Below, in pieces: positions 1,022 to 5,049 of a stretch of DNA of 11,399 bases (its first letter is position 1; every line of letters starts with the position of its first letter). The DNA comes from a virus (lineage: Duplodnaviria; Heunggongvirae; Uroviricota; Caudoviricetes). Location of the stretch: positions 1 through 11,399 of the IMG/VR virus record IMGVR_UViG_2724679293_000010. One strand, given 5' to 3'. A program made the position numbers and the translations under genes. The notes beneath the pieces were generated by a model that was not told where the DNA came from, made no database searches, and saw only the letters and a program-made list of their open reading frames with translations.

Positions 1022-4000
1022 TCAGCTGATACTGATGCCTGCGGTGGCTTTCTTCATCACCACAACCAGCAAATCGCTGATACTTGCTGTGGGATACCAG
1101 TTATTCACCAGCCATGCTGATACCGAAAACTCCAGCGTCATGTGACCGTGACCGGCAGGCATATCAATAACGCCACTGTAAATCAGCGTATTATCCAGCG
1201 CGGTACGGTTATAAATTTCAGCACCGTTTTTCCGCACTATCAGACGGCATGAGGAGTAAATATCAGTATGCTCTCTCTCATGCTTAGCGCCACTGAATGC
1301 CACCGCCGGAATAACAATCTGCCGGTCAAACGGCTGATCGTCATAAACCCTGACGGTAATGGTCCCTGATGGCCACCGCTCCGGTGCCCGGGAGTCCCGC
1401 GGAAAAGCCTTACCCACTGTTTTGACTATATCGCCTTCAATCTGGTTGGCTGACAGTTTCCCCTTAATCTGACAGTTCTCATTAATTGTGACATTGTTGA
1501 GCGTCCCGGCGTTCGCATTCACACTGCCACTGATATCTGCATTTTTAGCGGTCAGCTTTCCGTCCGGTGTCAGGGAAAATGCCGGAGGATTACCGCCGCT
1601 GGTAATGGTGGGAGCCGTCAGGCGTTTCAGGAACACGTCGTTCATGAATATCTGATCGCCCTGACCAACAAACATCGGCTTTGTGTTGCCATTCGCAGGA
1701 TTAATCATCGCAATCCTGTCTGCCGCCAGCAGCACCTGACTCTGCATTCCTGCTGGCGTATTCTCAATACCGGCACCGATACCCGCAATATAAAGGCGTC
1801 CGTCCTTCATCTGTTGCAGCTTCACAGCCCACATGCTGTTCAGATTATTATTTGTATCAACCTGAACCTTCTGTATCTGCTGGATCGCTGCACTCTGGTC
1901 TTCCAGTTTCTTATTGACGGTCTGCGTGATTTCATTACTGACATCCGTGATGGACGTTCTGATTTCCGCCAGGTCAGGCGCAAGCTGACCGTTATCAATC
2001 TGAGTCCACAACTCCTGAGCCAGATGGGTTTTCCCTATCTCTCCTTTGAAAAAATCCAGATAGCCGGATGCATCATCACTCGGCTGGCCAACAGCCTCCA
2101 CAAATGCCGATTTGCCAACGGTGTTCACACTGCGGATATAAAAGTAATAATCATGGCCCGGTTTGATATTGATACTGGCGGCTATCCAGTACAGCCCCGT
2201 GCCAAGGTAGCGGGCTGTGGTTTCAACCTGCCTGATATCGGTAATCCGCGTTTCCGAAAACCAGAACTCAAACTGTACCGTCGGGTCATACACCGCAAGA
2301 CGCGGGACCGCTGTTATCTGAAAATAGCCCGGTGTCAGCTCAATCTGTGACGGCGCTGCCGGTGCGGCAATCCGGAACGATACCGACGCCGGATCGCCCT
2401 GCTGCCCCCACGCATTTACCGCCCGGACTGTCAGCCTGTAGTTCCCCGGCGCCAGTTGCGTGAAGCGGTATGTGGTTTCCGTCGTCCGGGCCGTGCTGAC
2501 CAGCCGCTCACTGCCGTCATCCGCGACCACGGTCAGGCGAAGCATAAAGCTCACGCCCTTCACCACCTTCGGCGTGTCCCATTTCGCCTGCGCCAGATAC
2601 TGACCGTCAGCTGCGCTCACCTCCACCGTCAGGTGCTGCACTGCCGGAGGGATGACGCTGTTCAGGGTGCCTGACTGCGGCTCAAAGCTGGCCCCGTTAT
2701 CCACGATGGCTTCCTTTTCCGGTACGTGCTGCACCGCCGTGATGGCAAAGGTGCCGTCCGTGTTTTCCCGGATGGAGACACAGCGGAACAGGCGACGACA
2801 CAGTGACGGCAGGGAGAGTCCCCATACACCGTATGTCTCCACACCATCAGGCAGGGTGCTGACCTGTATCCGGTCCGGCGCGGGGTGTGCAGTGATGGCC
2901 ACGCTCACCGGCTTACCGCTGCCGTTAATCAGGTTCACCGTGGCGGCACCTGTCTCCGGCAGGGTCACCTCACGGTCCAGTGTCAGGGTGCGGCTGGCGG
3001 CATCGATGGACAGGATACGTCCGCCGGTCATGGTCCCGGCATAGTCGTTATCACAGATTTCAATAATGTCACCGGGTGTGTGACGCAGCCCCTGTGACCC
3101 GAGCGTGAAATCCACCGTCTGCGTTTCCAGCAGTCCGGTCTTTATCACCCACAGCCCGGCACGGTGGGCCTGACCGCGACTGGTGCAACCGAACGCATCC
3201 ATCTTCAGCAGGTTGCGCCCGTAGCGCAGTATGGCTTCCGGGTCTTCCACCAGTTCCGTGGAGGTCTGCCAGCCGTTCTGCGGGTCGGNNNNNNNTGTCC
3301 CACAGGCACCAGGCCGGGTTGTTGCTGTATGCCGGTTTCAGGCTGCCGTCCCAGATGCCGCTGTACGTGCGTTTTTCCGGGTCATAGTTTGACGGCACCT
3401 GGATGATGCGACCGCGGATATGGTAGTTCACCGTCATCTGCTGACCGCCAAACTGCTCCGCATCCACCTGCAGCCCCACAATCGCCGTGTTCGGGTAGCA
3501 CTGTTTCACATCGATGATTTCGGTGTATGACGACCAGAGCGTTCTGTTCTGCAGCTGGTCCGTGGTGCTGTCCGCCGTCTCCCGGACCATCCGGATGTTA
3601 AAGGGACGGGGAGGCAGATTCTCCAGAATCACCGACGCCAGGTACTGTGAGGTGGTCTTGCCGTTAATGGTGACATCCTTTTCCGTCACCCAGTTACCGT
3701 TACGCTGCAACTGAATCAGCAGTCGGACAGAAGAGGGATTACGGTCGCCCTTTGAGGTGGTCTCCAACAGTGACTGCACCCCGAAGGTGACCCGCAGGCG
3801 GTCAATGTTCGCGGACGTAATGGTGCGCGTCACCGGCTTTGCCTTCGTCACTTCCACGCCCAGTGCGGTTTCCGCCCCGGAGGACTCAAAGCCTTCAGGT
3901 GGTGTCTGCTCCTGCTCCCCGGCGCGCCAGACCGCTGTCACACCATGTATCACAGGATTACCGTCCGTGTCCGTCAGCGGGGTTTTGTTCACCAGGATAC

Positions 4001-4130
4001 TCTGCAGCCCCTTCACCGGACCTTCAATCGGCCCTTCACCAATGGCATCAATCACGCTCATCATCTGCGTGGACTTAAGATTGTCCTTTGCCTCTACCGG
4101 CGTGTGCGCCTTGCCGCCACCTTTGCCCAT
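1022..4130 (-). CDS. J: central tail fibre / host-specificity protein J; one gene split into two track ORFs by an N-run assembly gap
   Basis: N-terminal part (4130 down to 3296) begins [22 protein letters not shown]... with GGGGGAG RBS and reads through ...AWCLWD before the N run. C-terminal part (3288 down to 1022) resumes ...[25 protein letters not shown]... in a different apparent frame and continues to the stop at 1024-1022. Both parts are collinear with lambda gpJ as remembered, with roughly 100 residues unaccounted for at the gap. The track ORF start at 4172 (MFLCVTVITVKGET) is an upstream in-frame ATG inside the terminator T-tract and is not used. Confidence 0.9.
3289..3295. other. assembly gap (7 N) inside gene J
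   Basis: Literal nnnnnnn in the sequence; the J reading frame differs on the two sides, so the N count does not represent the true missing length. Confidence 0.95.
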
Positions 4131-4162
4131 TGTCTCCCCCTTTACTGTGATAACTGTTACGC

Positions 4163-4194
4163 ACAAAAACAACAGGCATCCCGGAGGATGCCTG
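4163..4194 (-). terminator. intrinsic terminator-like hairpin immediately upstream of J
   Basis: On the minus strand: perfect 9-bp stem CAGGCATCC / GGATGCCTG (4194-4186 and 4181-4173) with TCCG loop, followed by TTGTTTTTGTG (4172-4162); ends 32 nt upstream of the J start codon. Confidence 0.55.
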
Positions 4195-4325
4195 TATCAT
4201 GACTGAATAAAACTTCTGAATATCTTCACATTTTCACAAACTGACTGTGGTGCTAATAATTTCTCTGCATTAATGTTTTTTGTCGTGACATAAGAATAAC
4301 TCTCTATAGTTAATCTTCGTAACTC

Positions 4326-4370
4326 TCCCGCAGTTCCTGTCCGTGAGCACTGCGGGATTTTTTATGTTTT
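4326..4370 (+). terminator. plus-strand hairpin followed by a T-run (weak terminator-like element) just downstream of the I stop
   Basis: Plus strand: 8-bp stem TCCCGCAG (4326-4333) / CTGCGGGA (4350-4357) with a 16-nt loop, followed by TTTTTTATGTTTT (4358-4370). The long loop makes this a weak call. Confidence 0.3.
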
Positions 4371-5049
4371 ATGCCTGCCGCCCGATAACCACCACCTTCC
4401 CGTCACCGCCTTCATCACGGGTACTGATGTCCTGGGAGATTCGCCGGGAGCCAACCAGCATTTCACCATAAGGCACCGGCATCGGGTTCCCCTGGGCAAT
4501 CATGTTATCCAGCGAGGAAAAGTACGTGTTCTGTCTGCCGTTATCCGTTGCGCGGTAATCCGGTGTTTTTGCCTTCGGGGCCAGCATCTGGGCCACACCA
4601 CCCAGAATCATGCTGGCCCCCAGTGAAAACAGCATCGTGGTGGCAGAAAAACCACCGGCTGCCAGGGCTGAACCCCATAACGCCATTGATGCCCCGGCCG
4701 TGAAGAACGACCCCACGATGGCTGCCGCCCCCAGCACAATCTGCAGTCCACCCTTTCCGGCCCCGGCCAGTCGCGGCACAATGTGGATGACCGTTCCCTC
4801 ACCCAGCTGTTCGTGAAGACGGGCGTACACCGCCTCCGGTGCCGTGTCCTCACCGCGAATACGTATCTGGTACCAGCCTTCGTTCATCTGACGGCGGAAT
4901 CCCGGCATCTGCATCGACAGGGCACGGATGGCTTCCGCTGCCGTGTTCACATACAGGCTGAGGCGGCGGCCAAATCGTTGTAAATCCCCGTGAAGGCAGA
5001 TGCGGACCAGTGGCGGTGACGCCAGACAGAATGCGTTCGTCGTTGCCAT
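4369..5049 (-). CDS. I: tail tip assembly protein I
   Basis: 226-aa ORF MATTNAFCLASPPLVRICLHGDLQRFGRRL... with glycine-rich hydrophobic central segment; collinear with lambda gpI as remembered; start overlaps the 3' end of K by 103 nt as in lambda. Confidence 0.93.
   Translation of the reverse strand: MATTNAFCLASPPLVRICLHGDLQRFGRRLSLYVNTAAEAIRALSMQMPGFRRQMNEGWYQIRIRGEDTAPEAVYARLHEQLGEGTVIHIVPRLAGAGKGGLQIVLGAAAIVGSFFTAGASMALWGSALAAGGFSATTMLFSLGASMILGGVAQMLAPKAKTPDYRATDNGRQNTYFSSLDNMIAQGNPMPVPYGEMLVGSRRISQDISTRDEGGDGKVVVIGRQA

What the first reader, a model, noticed from the sequence alone, without database searches (positions are those of the whole stretch)
4131..4232. Strong intrinsic terminator-like hairpin placed just upstream of the J start codon, inside the late operon
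A perfect 9-bp GC-rich stem with tetraloop and a TTGTTTTTGTG tail on the coding (minus) strand at 4194-4162 sits 32 nt before J. Within a Q-antiterminated late operon it would be read through. It could modulate J dosage relative to upstream genes, act as a processing or stability element for the J 5' UTR, or be the 3' end of a short transcript from the AT-rich spacer. The I-J spacer is about 238 bp here, whereas my recollection of lambda is about 60 bp.
Basis: partly seen in the sequence, partly recalled or inferred. Interest (0 to 1): 0.45.

Follow-up and report, generated by a model that had tools for sequence, protein, structure and literature searches.

The report
Terminator hairpin before phage gene J
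The hairpin is a real, conserved transcription-terminator-like element found just before the tail-tip gene J in many lambda-like phages, including lambda itself, and the unusually long gap it sits in is explained by a known small-RNA gene (PasB/EcOnc22-24) on the opposite strand, so the finding is largely ordinary.

Summary
On the minus (tail-gene) strand, 4195-4172 is a perfect 10-bp stem with a UCCG loop (-19.3 kcal/mol, z -5). A UUGUUUUUGUG-type tail follows, and the J start codon lies 31 nt further on. Only 1.3% of shuffled windows give such a site.

It is not peculiar to this locus. All 78 evaluable IMG/VR copies of this hairpin family lie directly upstream of a J start. Hairpins of unrelated sequence occupy the same position in lambda (inside its 60-bp spacer), mEp235, HK97 and phiKO2. 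The HK97 and phiKO2 records annotate theirs as putative terminators. The T-run and the G·U pairs point to the tail-gene strand.

The extra ~180 bp is a low-GC "reverse moron": a variant of the Hfq-dependent sRNA PasB (EPEC), which is the same family as EcOnc22/23/24 (EHEC Sakai). It lies on the plus strand with its own promoter (4233-4260) and terminator (4326-4363).

Best reading: an intrinsic terminator that closes the I/J cargo slot. It would stop polymerase lacking Q from running into J in the lysogen and be read through by Q-modified polymerase. Termination activity and biological role were not tested. Sakai Term-seq data (GSE143631) would decide.

Interest is low.

The parts
4172..4195 (-). 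Stem-loop of the terminator-like hairpin: ACAGGCATCC / TCCG / GGATGCCTGT, 10 perfect pairs
   Evidence: Folding gives -19.3 kcal/mol, z -4.97. In 13 sequence variants, 97.7% of pair cells are paired and one pair shows a compensatory change (CG 6, UA 4, UG 2).
4162..4171 (-). T/U-rich tail TGTTTTTGTG directly after the stem
   Evidence: The 10 nt after the stem hold 5-7 T on the tail-gene strand in all 13 variants, against 2-3 T on the opposite strand.
4131..4161 (-). J 5' leader carrying the Shine-Dalgarno-like AAGGGGGAG; J ATG at 4130-4128
   Evidence: The J N-terminus is MGKGGGK and the protein matches the FNIII-A_GpJ Pfam domain.
4197..4235 (.). Most conserved block of the whole spacer, GAAAATGTGAAGATATTCAGAAGTTTTATTCAGTCATGA on the minus strand. 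It lies upstream of and overlaps the -35 of the pasB promoter and contains the imperfect palindrome TGAAGATATTCA. Its role is undetermined: UP element or regulator site for pasB, or the body of a hypothetical sense RNA.
   Evidence: Conservation track over 32 distinct spacers. The block precedes the hairpin in 79 of 80 IMG/VR loci.
4233..4260 (+). pasB promoter, TTCACA-16-AATAAT. The E2348/69 homologue is TTCACA-16-TATAAT.
4282..4364 (+). Variant of the sRNA PasB (same family as EcOnc22/23/24), antisense to the tail operon. The ends are mapped by homology to the published 83-nt E2348/69 RNA; the primary start predicted from the promoter is near 4267.
   Evidence: PasB coordinates and probe come from PMC8550237 table S8 and the E2348/69 locus. 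The EcOnc22/23/24 Northern probe maps to window minus strand 4329-4297. Homology mapping is; identity to E2348/69 PasB is 59%, with the same terminator stem and the conserved AAUCUUC seed region.
4326..4363 (+). pasB intrinsic terminator (stem UCCCGCAGU / ACUGCGGGA) followed by a U6 run; it ends 6 nt from the I stop codon
   Evidence: -16.8 kcal/mol, z -3.2.
4369..5049 (-). Tail assembly gene I, upstream neighbour of the spacer
   Evidence: Lambda_tail_I Pfam match; ORF list.
1022..4130 (-). Tail-tip gene J, downstream neighbour of the hairpin. In this window it is broken by a 368-bp internal deletion near 3288-3296 that shifts the frame.
   Evidence: An identical spacer sits before an intact 3477-nt J in E. 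coli DEC9B.

Best explanation
The hairpin is an intrinsic (Rho-independent) transcription terminator on the tail-gene strand. It belongs to the J-proximal edge of the I/J junction, a recurrent cargo ('moron') insertion slot in lambdoid phages. Cargo sits between the I stop codon and this hairpin. Here the cargo is the antisense sRNA gene pasB; in relatives it is sodC, a lipoprotein gene, another sRNA, or the HK97 moron and reverse moron.

Proposed mechanism. In a repressed prophage, RNA polymerase without Q modification that travels towards J would form the 10-bp hairpin and release at the U-run. Such polymerase could start at a cargo promoter, come from divergent firing of the symmetric pasB -10 element, or start at spurious sites in the AT-rich insert. 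J and the genes beyond it would then stay silent. Together with the pasB terminator facing the other way, this makes the insert a closed transcription unit. After induction, Q-modified polymerase from pR' reads through, and the hairpin remains as a structured element in the J leader.

Shown here: the sequence anatomy, significance against shuffles, conservation, strand assignment, exclusive pre-J position, and analogous elements in lambda, HK97, mEp235 and phiKO2.

Inferred, not tested: actual termination, read-through under Q, and the insulating role.
For: 1. Canonical anatomy and significance.
2. Strand assignment. The T-run is conserved only on the tail-gene strand, with 5-7 of 10 T against 2-3. 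Seven G·U cells in the sense RNA would be A-C mismatches in the antisense RNA. Pairing is 127/130 cells on the sense strand against 122/130 on the antisense strand.
3. The stem is maintained across 13 variants, with one compensatory pair.
4. All 78 evaluable IMG/VR occurrences of this hairpin family lie within 140 nt upstream of an MGKG J start.
5. Hairpins of different sequence but the same architecture (hairpin, T-run, Shine-Dalgarno, J ATG) occur elsewhere. Lambda has AACCGCC-TGCG-GGCGGTT followed by TTGTCATTTAT, in about 30 variants. One lambda-type variant carries an A-T to G-C compensatory change (AGCCGCC...GGCGGCT) and lies downstream of a sense-strand lipoprotein moron. mEp235 and phiKO2 also have such hairpins. 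The 342-bp spacer type carries a different hairpin, CCCCGGTATC-TGCT-GATACCGGGG followed by TTTCTCTTT.
6. Record authors annotated 'putative terminator' at this position in HK97, 11 nt before J and next to a 'moron product' and a 'reverse moron product', and in phiKO2.
7. The insert is moron-like in composition: 35.8% GC, against 60% for I and 56.5% for J.
8. The window's three strongest terminator-like sites on the tail-gene strand are all intergenic: before J, after J, and after lom.
Against: No 3'-end or termination data were available to me, so activity is inferred from sequence alone. The covariation statistics are weak: 45 of 500 shuffles reach the observed score, because the variants are closely related. 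The element is dispensable for the gene order. The sodC-type spacers and mEp044, S135, the Providencia phage and the Buttiauxella loci have no sense-strand terminator before J. No sense-strand promoter that would need blocking is predicted in four spacer variants, so the insulating role has no demonstrated substrate. In plain lambda there is no cargo at all, yet the hairpin is conserved, which suggests a role tied to the late transcript itself.
Confidence: 0.55

Rival explanations
1. RNA stability or processing element of the late polycistronic mRNA. Q-modified polymerase reads through, and the hairpin then acts in the transcript. It could be a 3' exonuclease barrier protecting the upstream tail-gene segment, a 5' stem-loop protecting a processed J mRNA, or a local fold that keeps the J ribosome-binding site free of long-range pairing. 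Where pasB is present, the fully complementary PasB RNA could pair with the late mRNA just upstream, leading to cleavage and leaving the hairpin near the new 5' end of J mRNA.
For: The hairpin is conserved in plain lambda, where there is no cargo promoter to insulate against. It always sits a short, fairly constant distance upstream of the J Shine-Dalgarno. J is the first tail gene after a run of overlapping, coupled genes that needs independent initiation (ORF layout). PasB is by construction perfectly complementary to the spacer part of the late mRNA.
Against: A stability element has no need for a T-run, yet the T-run is conserved in every lineage examined. The 10-bp stem is too short for RNase III, by general knowledge. 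No processing data are available. Several lambdoid phages do without any such hairpin.
Confidence: 0.2
2. Terminator of a separate short sense-strand RNA of roughly 80-90 nt. Its body would be the highly conserved block 4197-4235 plus flanks. It would be transcribed divergently from the symmetric -10 region of the pasB promoter, giving a back-to-back sRNA pair in the I-J slot.
For: The block plus hairpin plus T-run is the most conserved stretch of the spacer, more conserved than the pasB body. It is retained when pasB is replaced by a different sRNA (L047, L050) or when an IS element lies immediately upstream of the block in place of the pasB side of the spacer (L038, L025, L026). A U-rich stretch (GUUUUAUUC), then a hairpin, then a U tail resembles the Hfq-binding 3' module of sRNAs, by general knowledge. 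The pasB -10 (AATAAT or TATAAT) read on the other strand, offset by one base, gives AATTAT, which keeps the two key positions (A at 2, T at 6).
Against: No consensus sigma-70 promoter is found on the sense strand in four spacer variants. The list of Hfq-bound orphan RNAs in Sakai has no minus-strand peak in Sp11, Sp14 or Sp15 near the coordinates of the plus-strand EcOnc22-24 peaks. No 'pasB.E2348C_1437.IGR' or E2348C_1437 entry appears in the stored parts of the EPEC RIL-seq tables. The block's conservation can equally be explained as the UP element and -35 region of the pasB promoter.
Confidence: 0.12
3. DNA-level palindrome rather than an RNA element. It would be a binding site for a dimeric regulator of the pasB promoter about 40-70 bp away, or a recombination joint that marks module boundaries.
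For: Symmetric changes in both half-sites would also mimic 'compensatory' changes. Recombination breakpoints do fall at or inside the element. L036 and L037 are hybrids with a break in the loop, and the 342-bp type breaks just before the hairpin.
Against: G·U-compatible asymmetric changes break the DNA symmetry but keep the sense RNA paired; there are 7 such cells. The adjacent T-run is conserved. Analogues of unrelated sequence with the same hairpin-plus-T-run form occur in phages that lack pasB.
Confidence: 0.05

Closest known systems
HK97 putative terminator 15107..15129, just upstream of gene J, next to Gp22 'moron product' and Gp23 'reverse moron product' (record NC_002167)
   Same: Same position: between tail genes I and J, 11 nt before J, on the late-operon strand. 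Same neighbourhood logic: cargo including a reverse-oriented unit with its own terminator lies between I and this terminator. Same form: GC-rich hairpin plus T-run.
   Different: Unrelated sequence (AGCCACC-TTTG-GGTGGCT followed by TTTTTAT). The HK97 cargo is two small protein genes, whereas here it is an sRNA gene. The hairpin here has a longer stem and lies further from J (31 nt against 11). Neither has been tested experimentally, as far as I could find.
Lambda I-J intercistronic hairpin (AACCGCC-TGCG-GGCGGTT followed by TTGTCATTTAT, about 15465-15495 in NC_001416)
   Same: Same position relative to J and same order: hairpin, T-run, Shine-Dalgarno, ATG. Conserved in about 30 variants, with one compensatory variant.
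   Different: Unrelated sequence, a shorter and weaker stem (-12.3 kcal/mol, z -1.4), and no cargo between I and the hairpin. It is not annotated in the lambda record.
phiKO2 putative terminator 15298..15320, between the I-like gene 20 and the J-like gene 21 (record AY374448)
   Same: Annotated by the record's authors as a terminator at the same junction. Hairpin GGCCACC-TTGC-GGTGGC followed by T7.
   Different: A linear-plasmid prophage of Klebsiella with a different sequence, a 65-bp spacer and no cargo.
PasB (EPEC E2348/69, PMC8550237) and EcOnc22/23/24 (EHEC Sakai, PMC4104026): Hfq-dependent sRNAs of about 83-85 nt
   Same: This is the neighbour of the hairpin, not the hairpin itself. It occupies the same I-J spacer, lies antisense to the tail genes, and has the same promoter architecture and terminator stem. 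The published probes map to the window's spacer.
   Different: The window's copy is a divergent variant, 59% identical to E2348/69 PasB and 65% to the Sakai type over the RNA. No Rfam family exists for it, and it is not annotated in the RefSeq loci examined (E2348/69 and DEC9B).
Lambda tR' with Q antitermination
   Same: An intrinsic terminator within the late transcription unit that unmodified polymerase obeys and Q-modified polymerase overrides (established knowledge).
   Different: tR' lies directly after pR' and is the regulatory checkpoint, and in Stx phages its product is the sRNA StxS (PMC7547250). The pre-J hairpin is about 15 kb downstream and has no associated promoter or known RNA product.

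Membership tests
Intrinsic (Rho-independent) terminator | GC-rich stem of about 5-14 bp with a short loop (3-8 nt) | tested here: met
   10 perfect pairs, 6 of them G-C, with a 4-nt loop; -19.3 kcal/mol.
Intrinsic (Rho-independent) terminator | U-rich tract immediately 3' of the stem on the transcribed strand | tested here: met
   UGUUUUUGUG, or UUGUUUUUGUG counting the last stem U. The 10-nt tail holds 5-7 T in all 13 variants on the sense strand, against 2-3 on the other strand.
Intrinsic (Rho-independent) terminator | Intergenic position, in the same orientation as the transcription it would stop | tested here: met
   Lies between I and J on the tail-gene strand.
Intrinsic (Rho-independent) terminator | RNA 3' ends at the U tract, or termination in vitro | not testable with these tools
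   Sakai Term-seq data exist (GSE143631, PMC7547250), but no tables were available to me.
Moron / reverse-moron cargo unit with flanking terminator (as annotated in the HK97 record) | Extra DNA between two genes that are adjacent or nearly adjacent in related phages | tested here: met
   The spacer is 238 bp here, 60 bp in lambda and 9-33 bp in mEp044, S135 and the Providencia phage. Several alternative cargoes occupy the same slot.
Moron / reverse-moron cargo unit with flanking terminator (as annotated in the HK97 record) | Own promoter and own terminator, allowing expression from the repressed prophage | tested here: met
   For pasB: a predicted promoter at 4233-4260 and a terminator at 4326-4363. 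Homologues are expressed in lysogens by Northern blot (PMC4104026, PMC8550237). For the sense-strand hairpin no promoter of its own is found.
Moron / reverse-moron cargo unit with flanking terminator (as annotated in the HK97 record) | Base composition different from the flanking phage genes | tested here: met
   35.8% GC in 4196-4368, against 60.4% for I and 56.5% for J.
PasB / EcOnc22-24 sRNA (considered for the hairpin itself) | Lies within the mapped RNA (E2348/69 1466261-1466343) on the strand antisense to the tail genes | tested here: not met
   The hairpin (4172-4195) lies 87 nt upstream of the homology-mapped PasB 5' end (4282), beyond the pasB promoter, and its T-run is on the other strand. 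The hairpin is therefore not part of PasB.
Hfq-dependent sRNA on the sense strand (novel-case reading) | Own promoter, a detectable discrete transcript and Hfq binding | tested here: inconclusive
   No promoter is predicted. No entry appears in the CRAC table or the stored RIL-seq tables. The raw data were not examined.

The most novel reading that the evidence does not exclude
The conserved block 4197-4235 plus the hairpin and U tail would be a second small RNA of about 85 nt. It would be made on the tail-gene strand by divergent firing of the symmetric pasB -10 element, so the I/J slot would carry a back-to-back pair of prophage sRNAs. A related reading is that PasB acts in cis on the late mRNA, pairing across the spacer so that cleavage leaves the hairpin as the protective 5' end of a separate J-lom message. 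Either reading would make the hairpin part of an RNA-level control of tail-tip gene expression rather than a passive boundary.
Probability: 0.12. Interest if true: 0.5.

Novelty: new member of a known kind. Interest (0 to 1): 0.2.

Why it matters
In itself it matters little. Terminator-like hairpins before gene J were already annotated in HK97 and phiKO2, and lambda has one, so this is another member of a common class.

Three modest points of value come out of the check.

1. It gives a clear map of the I/J junction as a cargo slot, bounded on the J side by a sense-strand terminator, in prophages of pathogenic E. coli. This helps annotate more than a thousand genomes in which neither the hairpin nor pasB is annotated.
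2. PasB (EPEC) and EcOnc22/23/24 (EHEC) turn out to be the same sRNA family in the same slot. The papers I read do not state this link.
3. It sets up a concrete question that existing data can answer: does unmodified polymerase stop here, and is there a divergent sense transcript?

If the pre-J terminator does keep J silent in lysogens, it would be one small example of how prophages keep cargo expression apart from structural genes.

Tried and rejected
- **Rfam.** Nothing reaches the gathering score in the window. Only chance-level hits appear in 4050-4450. There is no family for PasB even in E2348/69.
- **AgvB/AsxR-type anti-sRNAs.** I suspected these because the plus strand reads CACAAAAACAACA next to the hairpin. 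I rejected the idea because those genes lie downstream of pR', not in the tail region.
- **HnrS (EcOnc10-12).** This is a different locus near the lysis genes.
- **EcOnc22 coordinates taken at face value.** In NC_002695.2 they put the Hfq peak on the plus strand exactly over the hairpin. This proved to be an artefact of record versions. AgvB lies about 137-146 nt away from its tabulated position. The PasA/EcOnc51 calibration was ambiguous. The published Northern probe settled it: it maps to the PasB body.
- **Genome-contig search with the J N-terminus.** It returned mostly lambda contamination in unrelated assemblies, so it was of little use.
- **Search with a distant J (Buttiauxella).** It gave one locus.
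- **Literature on 3'-end mapping of the lambda late operon.** Searches found nothing usable. The phiKO2 genome paper is not held. The Sakai Term-seq paper has no supplementary tables held.
- **Covariation test.** The stem is kept, but the test is statistically weak because the variants are too similar.
- **Small ORFs on the sense strand of the spacer.** They are at most about 12 codons or overlap J out of frame, so I did not pursue them.

Full report
**1. The observation**

The minus strand of the window carries a lambda-type tail operon. Pfam matches identify G, T, the tape-measure gene H, M, L, K, I, J and lom in that order. The I stop codon is at 4371-4369 and the J ATG is at 4130, so the spacer is 238 bp.

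On the minus strand, 4195-4186 (ACAGGCATCC) pairs perfectly with 4181-4172 (GGATGCCTGT) around the loop TCCG. The tail TGTTTTTGTG (4171-4162) follows, and then a 31-nt leader with a Shine-Dalgarno-like AAGGGGGAG.

The hairpin folds at -19.3 kcal/mol, against -7.1 +/- 2.45 for shuffles (z -4.97). A perfect stem of at least 9 bp with a T-rich tail turns up anywhere in only 1.3% of 300 dinucleotide shuffles of the whole window. The feature is real and is not a chance event.

**2. What fills the long spacer**

A second hairpin lies next to the I stop codon (4326-4357). On the plus strand it is followed by T6. A promoter-like site, TTCACA-16-AATAAT, lies at 4233-4260 on the plus strand.

This is the gene for a known sRNA. 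PasB of EPEC E2348/69 was mapped to NC_011601 1466343-1466261 on the minus strand. It is 83 nt long, needs Hfq for stability and was confirmed by Northern blot with the probe AATCCCGCAGTGATCGCGGAGCT (PMC8550237). That interval is the I-proximal part of the 240-bp I-J spacer of prophage PP6, antisense to the tail genes. The window aligns with it throughout, and the probe site is recognisable at window 4359-4337.

The EHEC Sakai sRNAs EcOnc22/23/24 are the same family. They are about 85 nt and are destabilised without Hfq (PMC4104026 Table S2). Their Northern probe maps to the tail-gene strand of the I-J spacers of Sp15, Sp14 and Sp11, and to window minus strand 4329-4297. The RNA is therefore on the window's plus strand.

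Taken at face value in NC_002695.2, the tabulated EcOnc22-24 coordinates fall on the hairpin. That is an offset of about 140 nt between record versions, shown by the position of AgvB.

By homology the window's PasB copy is plus strand 4282-4364. It is a divergent variant, 59% identical to E2348/69 PasB. This part of the spacer is 35.8% GC, against 56-60% in the flanking genes. In the terms used in the HK97 record, it is a reverse moron.

**3. The hairpin is separate from pasB and belongs to J**

It lies upstream of the pasB promoter, and its T-run is on the other strand.

- Across 13 sequence variants, 97.7% of pair cells are paired. One pair changes on both sides (CG 6, UA 4, UG 2). The shuffle control is weak (45 of 500) because the variants are close relatives.
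- The strand is indicated by two facts. The 10 nt after the stem hold 5-7 T on the tail-gene strand in every variant, against 2-3 on the opposite strand. Seven G·U cells in the sense RNA would be A-C mismatches in the antisense RNA.
- A pattern search of IMG/VR found this hairpin family only in front of J. Of 80 loci read, 78 of 78 evaluable have an MGKG start within 140 nt, and 79 of 80 carry the conserved block AATGTGAA... just upstream.
- The hairpin is kept when an IS element lies immediately upstream of the conserved block in place of the pasB side of the spacer, and when pasB is replaced by a different antisense sRNA.

**4. The same architecture in other lambdoid phages**

Lambda's 60-bp spacer is itself mostly a hairpin plus T-run, AACCGCC-TGCG-GGCGGTT followed by TTGTCATTTAT and then GGAG...ATG. 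It is conserved in about 30 variants. One variant carries an A-T to G-C compensatory change and lies downstream of a sense-strand lipoprotein moron inserted between I and the hairpin.

mEp235 (HK022-like) and phiKO2 have GGCCACC-type hairpins followed by T6-7 directly before the J Shine-Dalgarno. The phiKO2 record annotates a 'putative terminator' there. The HK97 record annotates, between I and J, a 'moron product', a 'reverse moron product' with its own terminator, and a 'putative terminator' 11 nt before J.

A 342-bp spacer type keeps pasB and the conserved block but has a different strong hairpin before J.

The element is not universal. sodC-carrying spacers have no sense-strand terminator before J. 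mEp044, S135, a Providencia phage and the Buttiauxella loci have I and J nearly adjacent.

**5. Interpretation**

The best-supported reading is an intrinsic terminator marking the J-side edge of a cargo slot. Polymerase lacking Q that moves towards J would stop there, so the cargo unit is closed on both sides by outward-facing terminators. Q-modified polymerase would read through. That read-through is established lambda biology and was not tested here.

Three points count against over-confidence.
- No termination data were available.
- No sense-strand promoter is predicted in four spacer variants.
- The hairpin is conserved in lambda even without cargo, which leaves room for a role within the late mRNA, such as stability or isolation of the J ribosome-binding site.

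A more novel reading is that the very conserved block plus the hairpin is a divergent sense sRNA. It has no support in the Hfq CRAC list or the stored RIL-seq tables, but it is not excluded.

**6. Novelty and verdict**

The hairpin is another member of a known kind, the pre-J putative terminators of lambdoid phages. The long spacer is explained by a published sRNA gene. Interest is low (0.2).

The decisive data already exist: the Sakai Term-seq and dRNA-seq sets under GSE143631.

Noticed in passing
window 4233-4364 (+): A complete, unannotated sRNA gene of the PasB family (promoter, body, terminator) lies antisense to the tail operon. PasB (EPEC, 2021) and EcOnc22/23/24 (EHEC Sakai, 2014) are the same family in the same I-J slot. 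The Pearl Mizrahi table lists no EHEC homologue for PasB, and the 2026 Pas preprint does not mention EcOnc names.
   Followed up: yes
window about 3288-3296 (-), within J (1022-4130): J carries a 368-bp internal deletion relative to close relatives: J nt 836-842 replace 375 nt. This shifts the frame and splits J into ORFs 4130-3069 and 3250-1022, so this prophage's tail-tip gene is a pseudogene. E. coli DEC9B has an identical spacer before an intact 3477-nt J.
   Followed up: partly
window 1003-984 (-) and 328-307 (-): Two further strong terminator-like hairpins lie on the tail-gene strand, one between J and lom and one after lom. J and lom are each bracketed by sense-strand terminators, which is the classic layout for lom as a moron.
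   Followed up: no
window 4197-4235: This is the most conserved stretch of the whole spacer across 32 variants. It contains the imperfect palindrome TGAAGATATTCA and an A/T-rich run just upstream of the pasB -35. It could be an UP element or a regulator site for pasB. It is kept even where a different sRNA replaces pasB (L047, L050).
   Followed up: partly
L017 350-1200; L148 784-1134; L038/L025/L026; L047/L050; L046 (342-bp type): The I/J junction is a cargo hotspot. Relatives carry an antisense sodC next to a pasB body that has lost its promoter, a sense-strand 116-aa lipoprotein gene, an IS insertion immediately upstream of the conserved block in place of the pasB side of the spacer, an unrelated antisense sRNA-like unit with its own terminator (TCTCCCGTAATA...TATTACGGGAGA), or an extra ~100-bp segment with a two-way hairpin.
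   Followed up: partly
L023, L029, L095 and the Sakai-type J leaders (between hairpin and J start): In the Sakai-type J leader, the heptamer CAGACAT just upstream of the J Shine-Dalgarno is repeated a variable number of times: one or two copies in most variants and about four in L029. This is a small variable tandem repeat in a 5' leader.
   Followed up: no
Sakai coordinates in PMC4104026 Table S2, compared with NC_002695.2: The published sRNA coordinates refer to the older Sakai record and are offset by about 137-146 nt at 1.94 Mb in the current RefSeq record. The offset at 2.17-2.90 Mb appears about the same, judging from where the EcOnc22/23/24 probe maps. Used naively, they place EcOnc22-24 on the wrong part of the spacer.
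   Followed up: yes
window 2124-2151 (+): A second TTCACA-16-AATAAT promoter-like site, with the same hexamers and spacing as the pasB promoter, lies inside J on the antisense strand. It may be chance, since 6 sites were found in the window against 5.8 expected.
   Followed up: no
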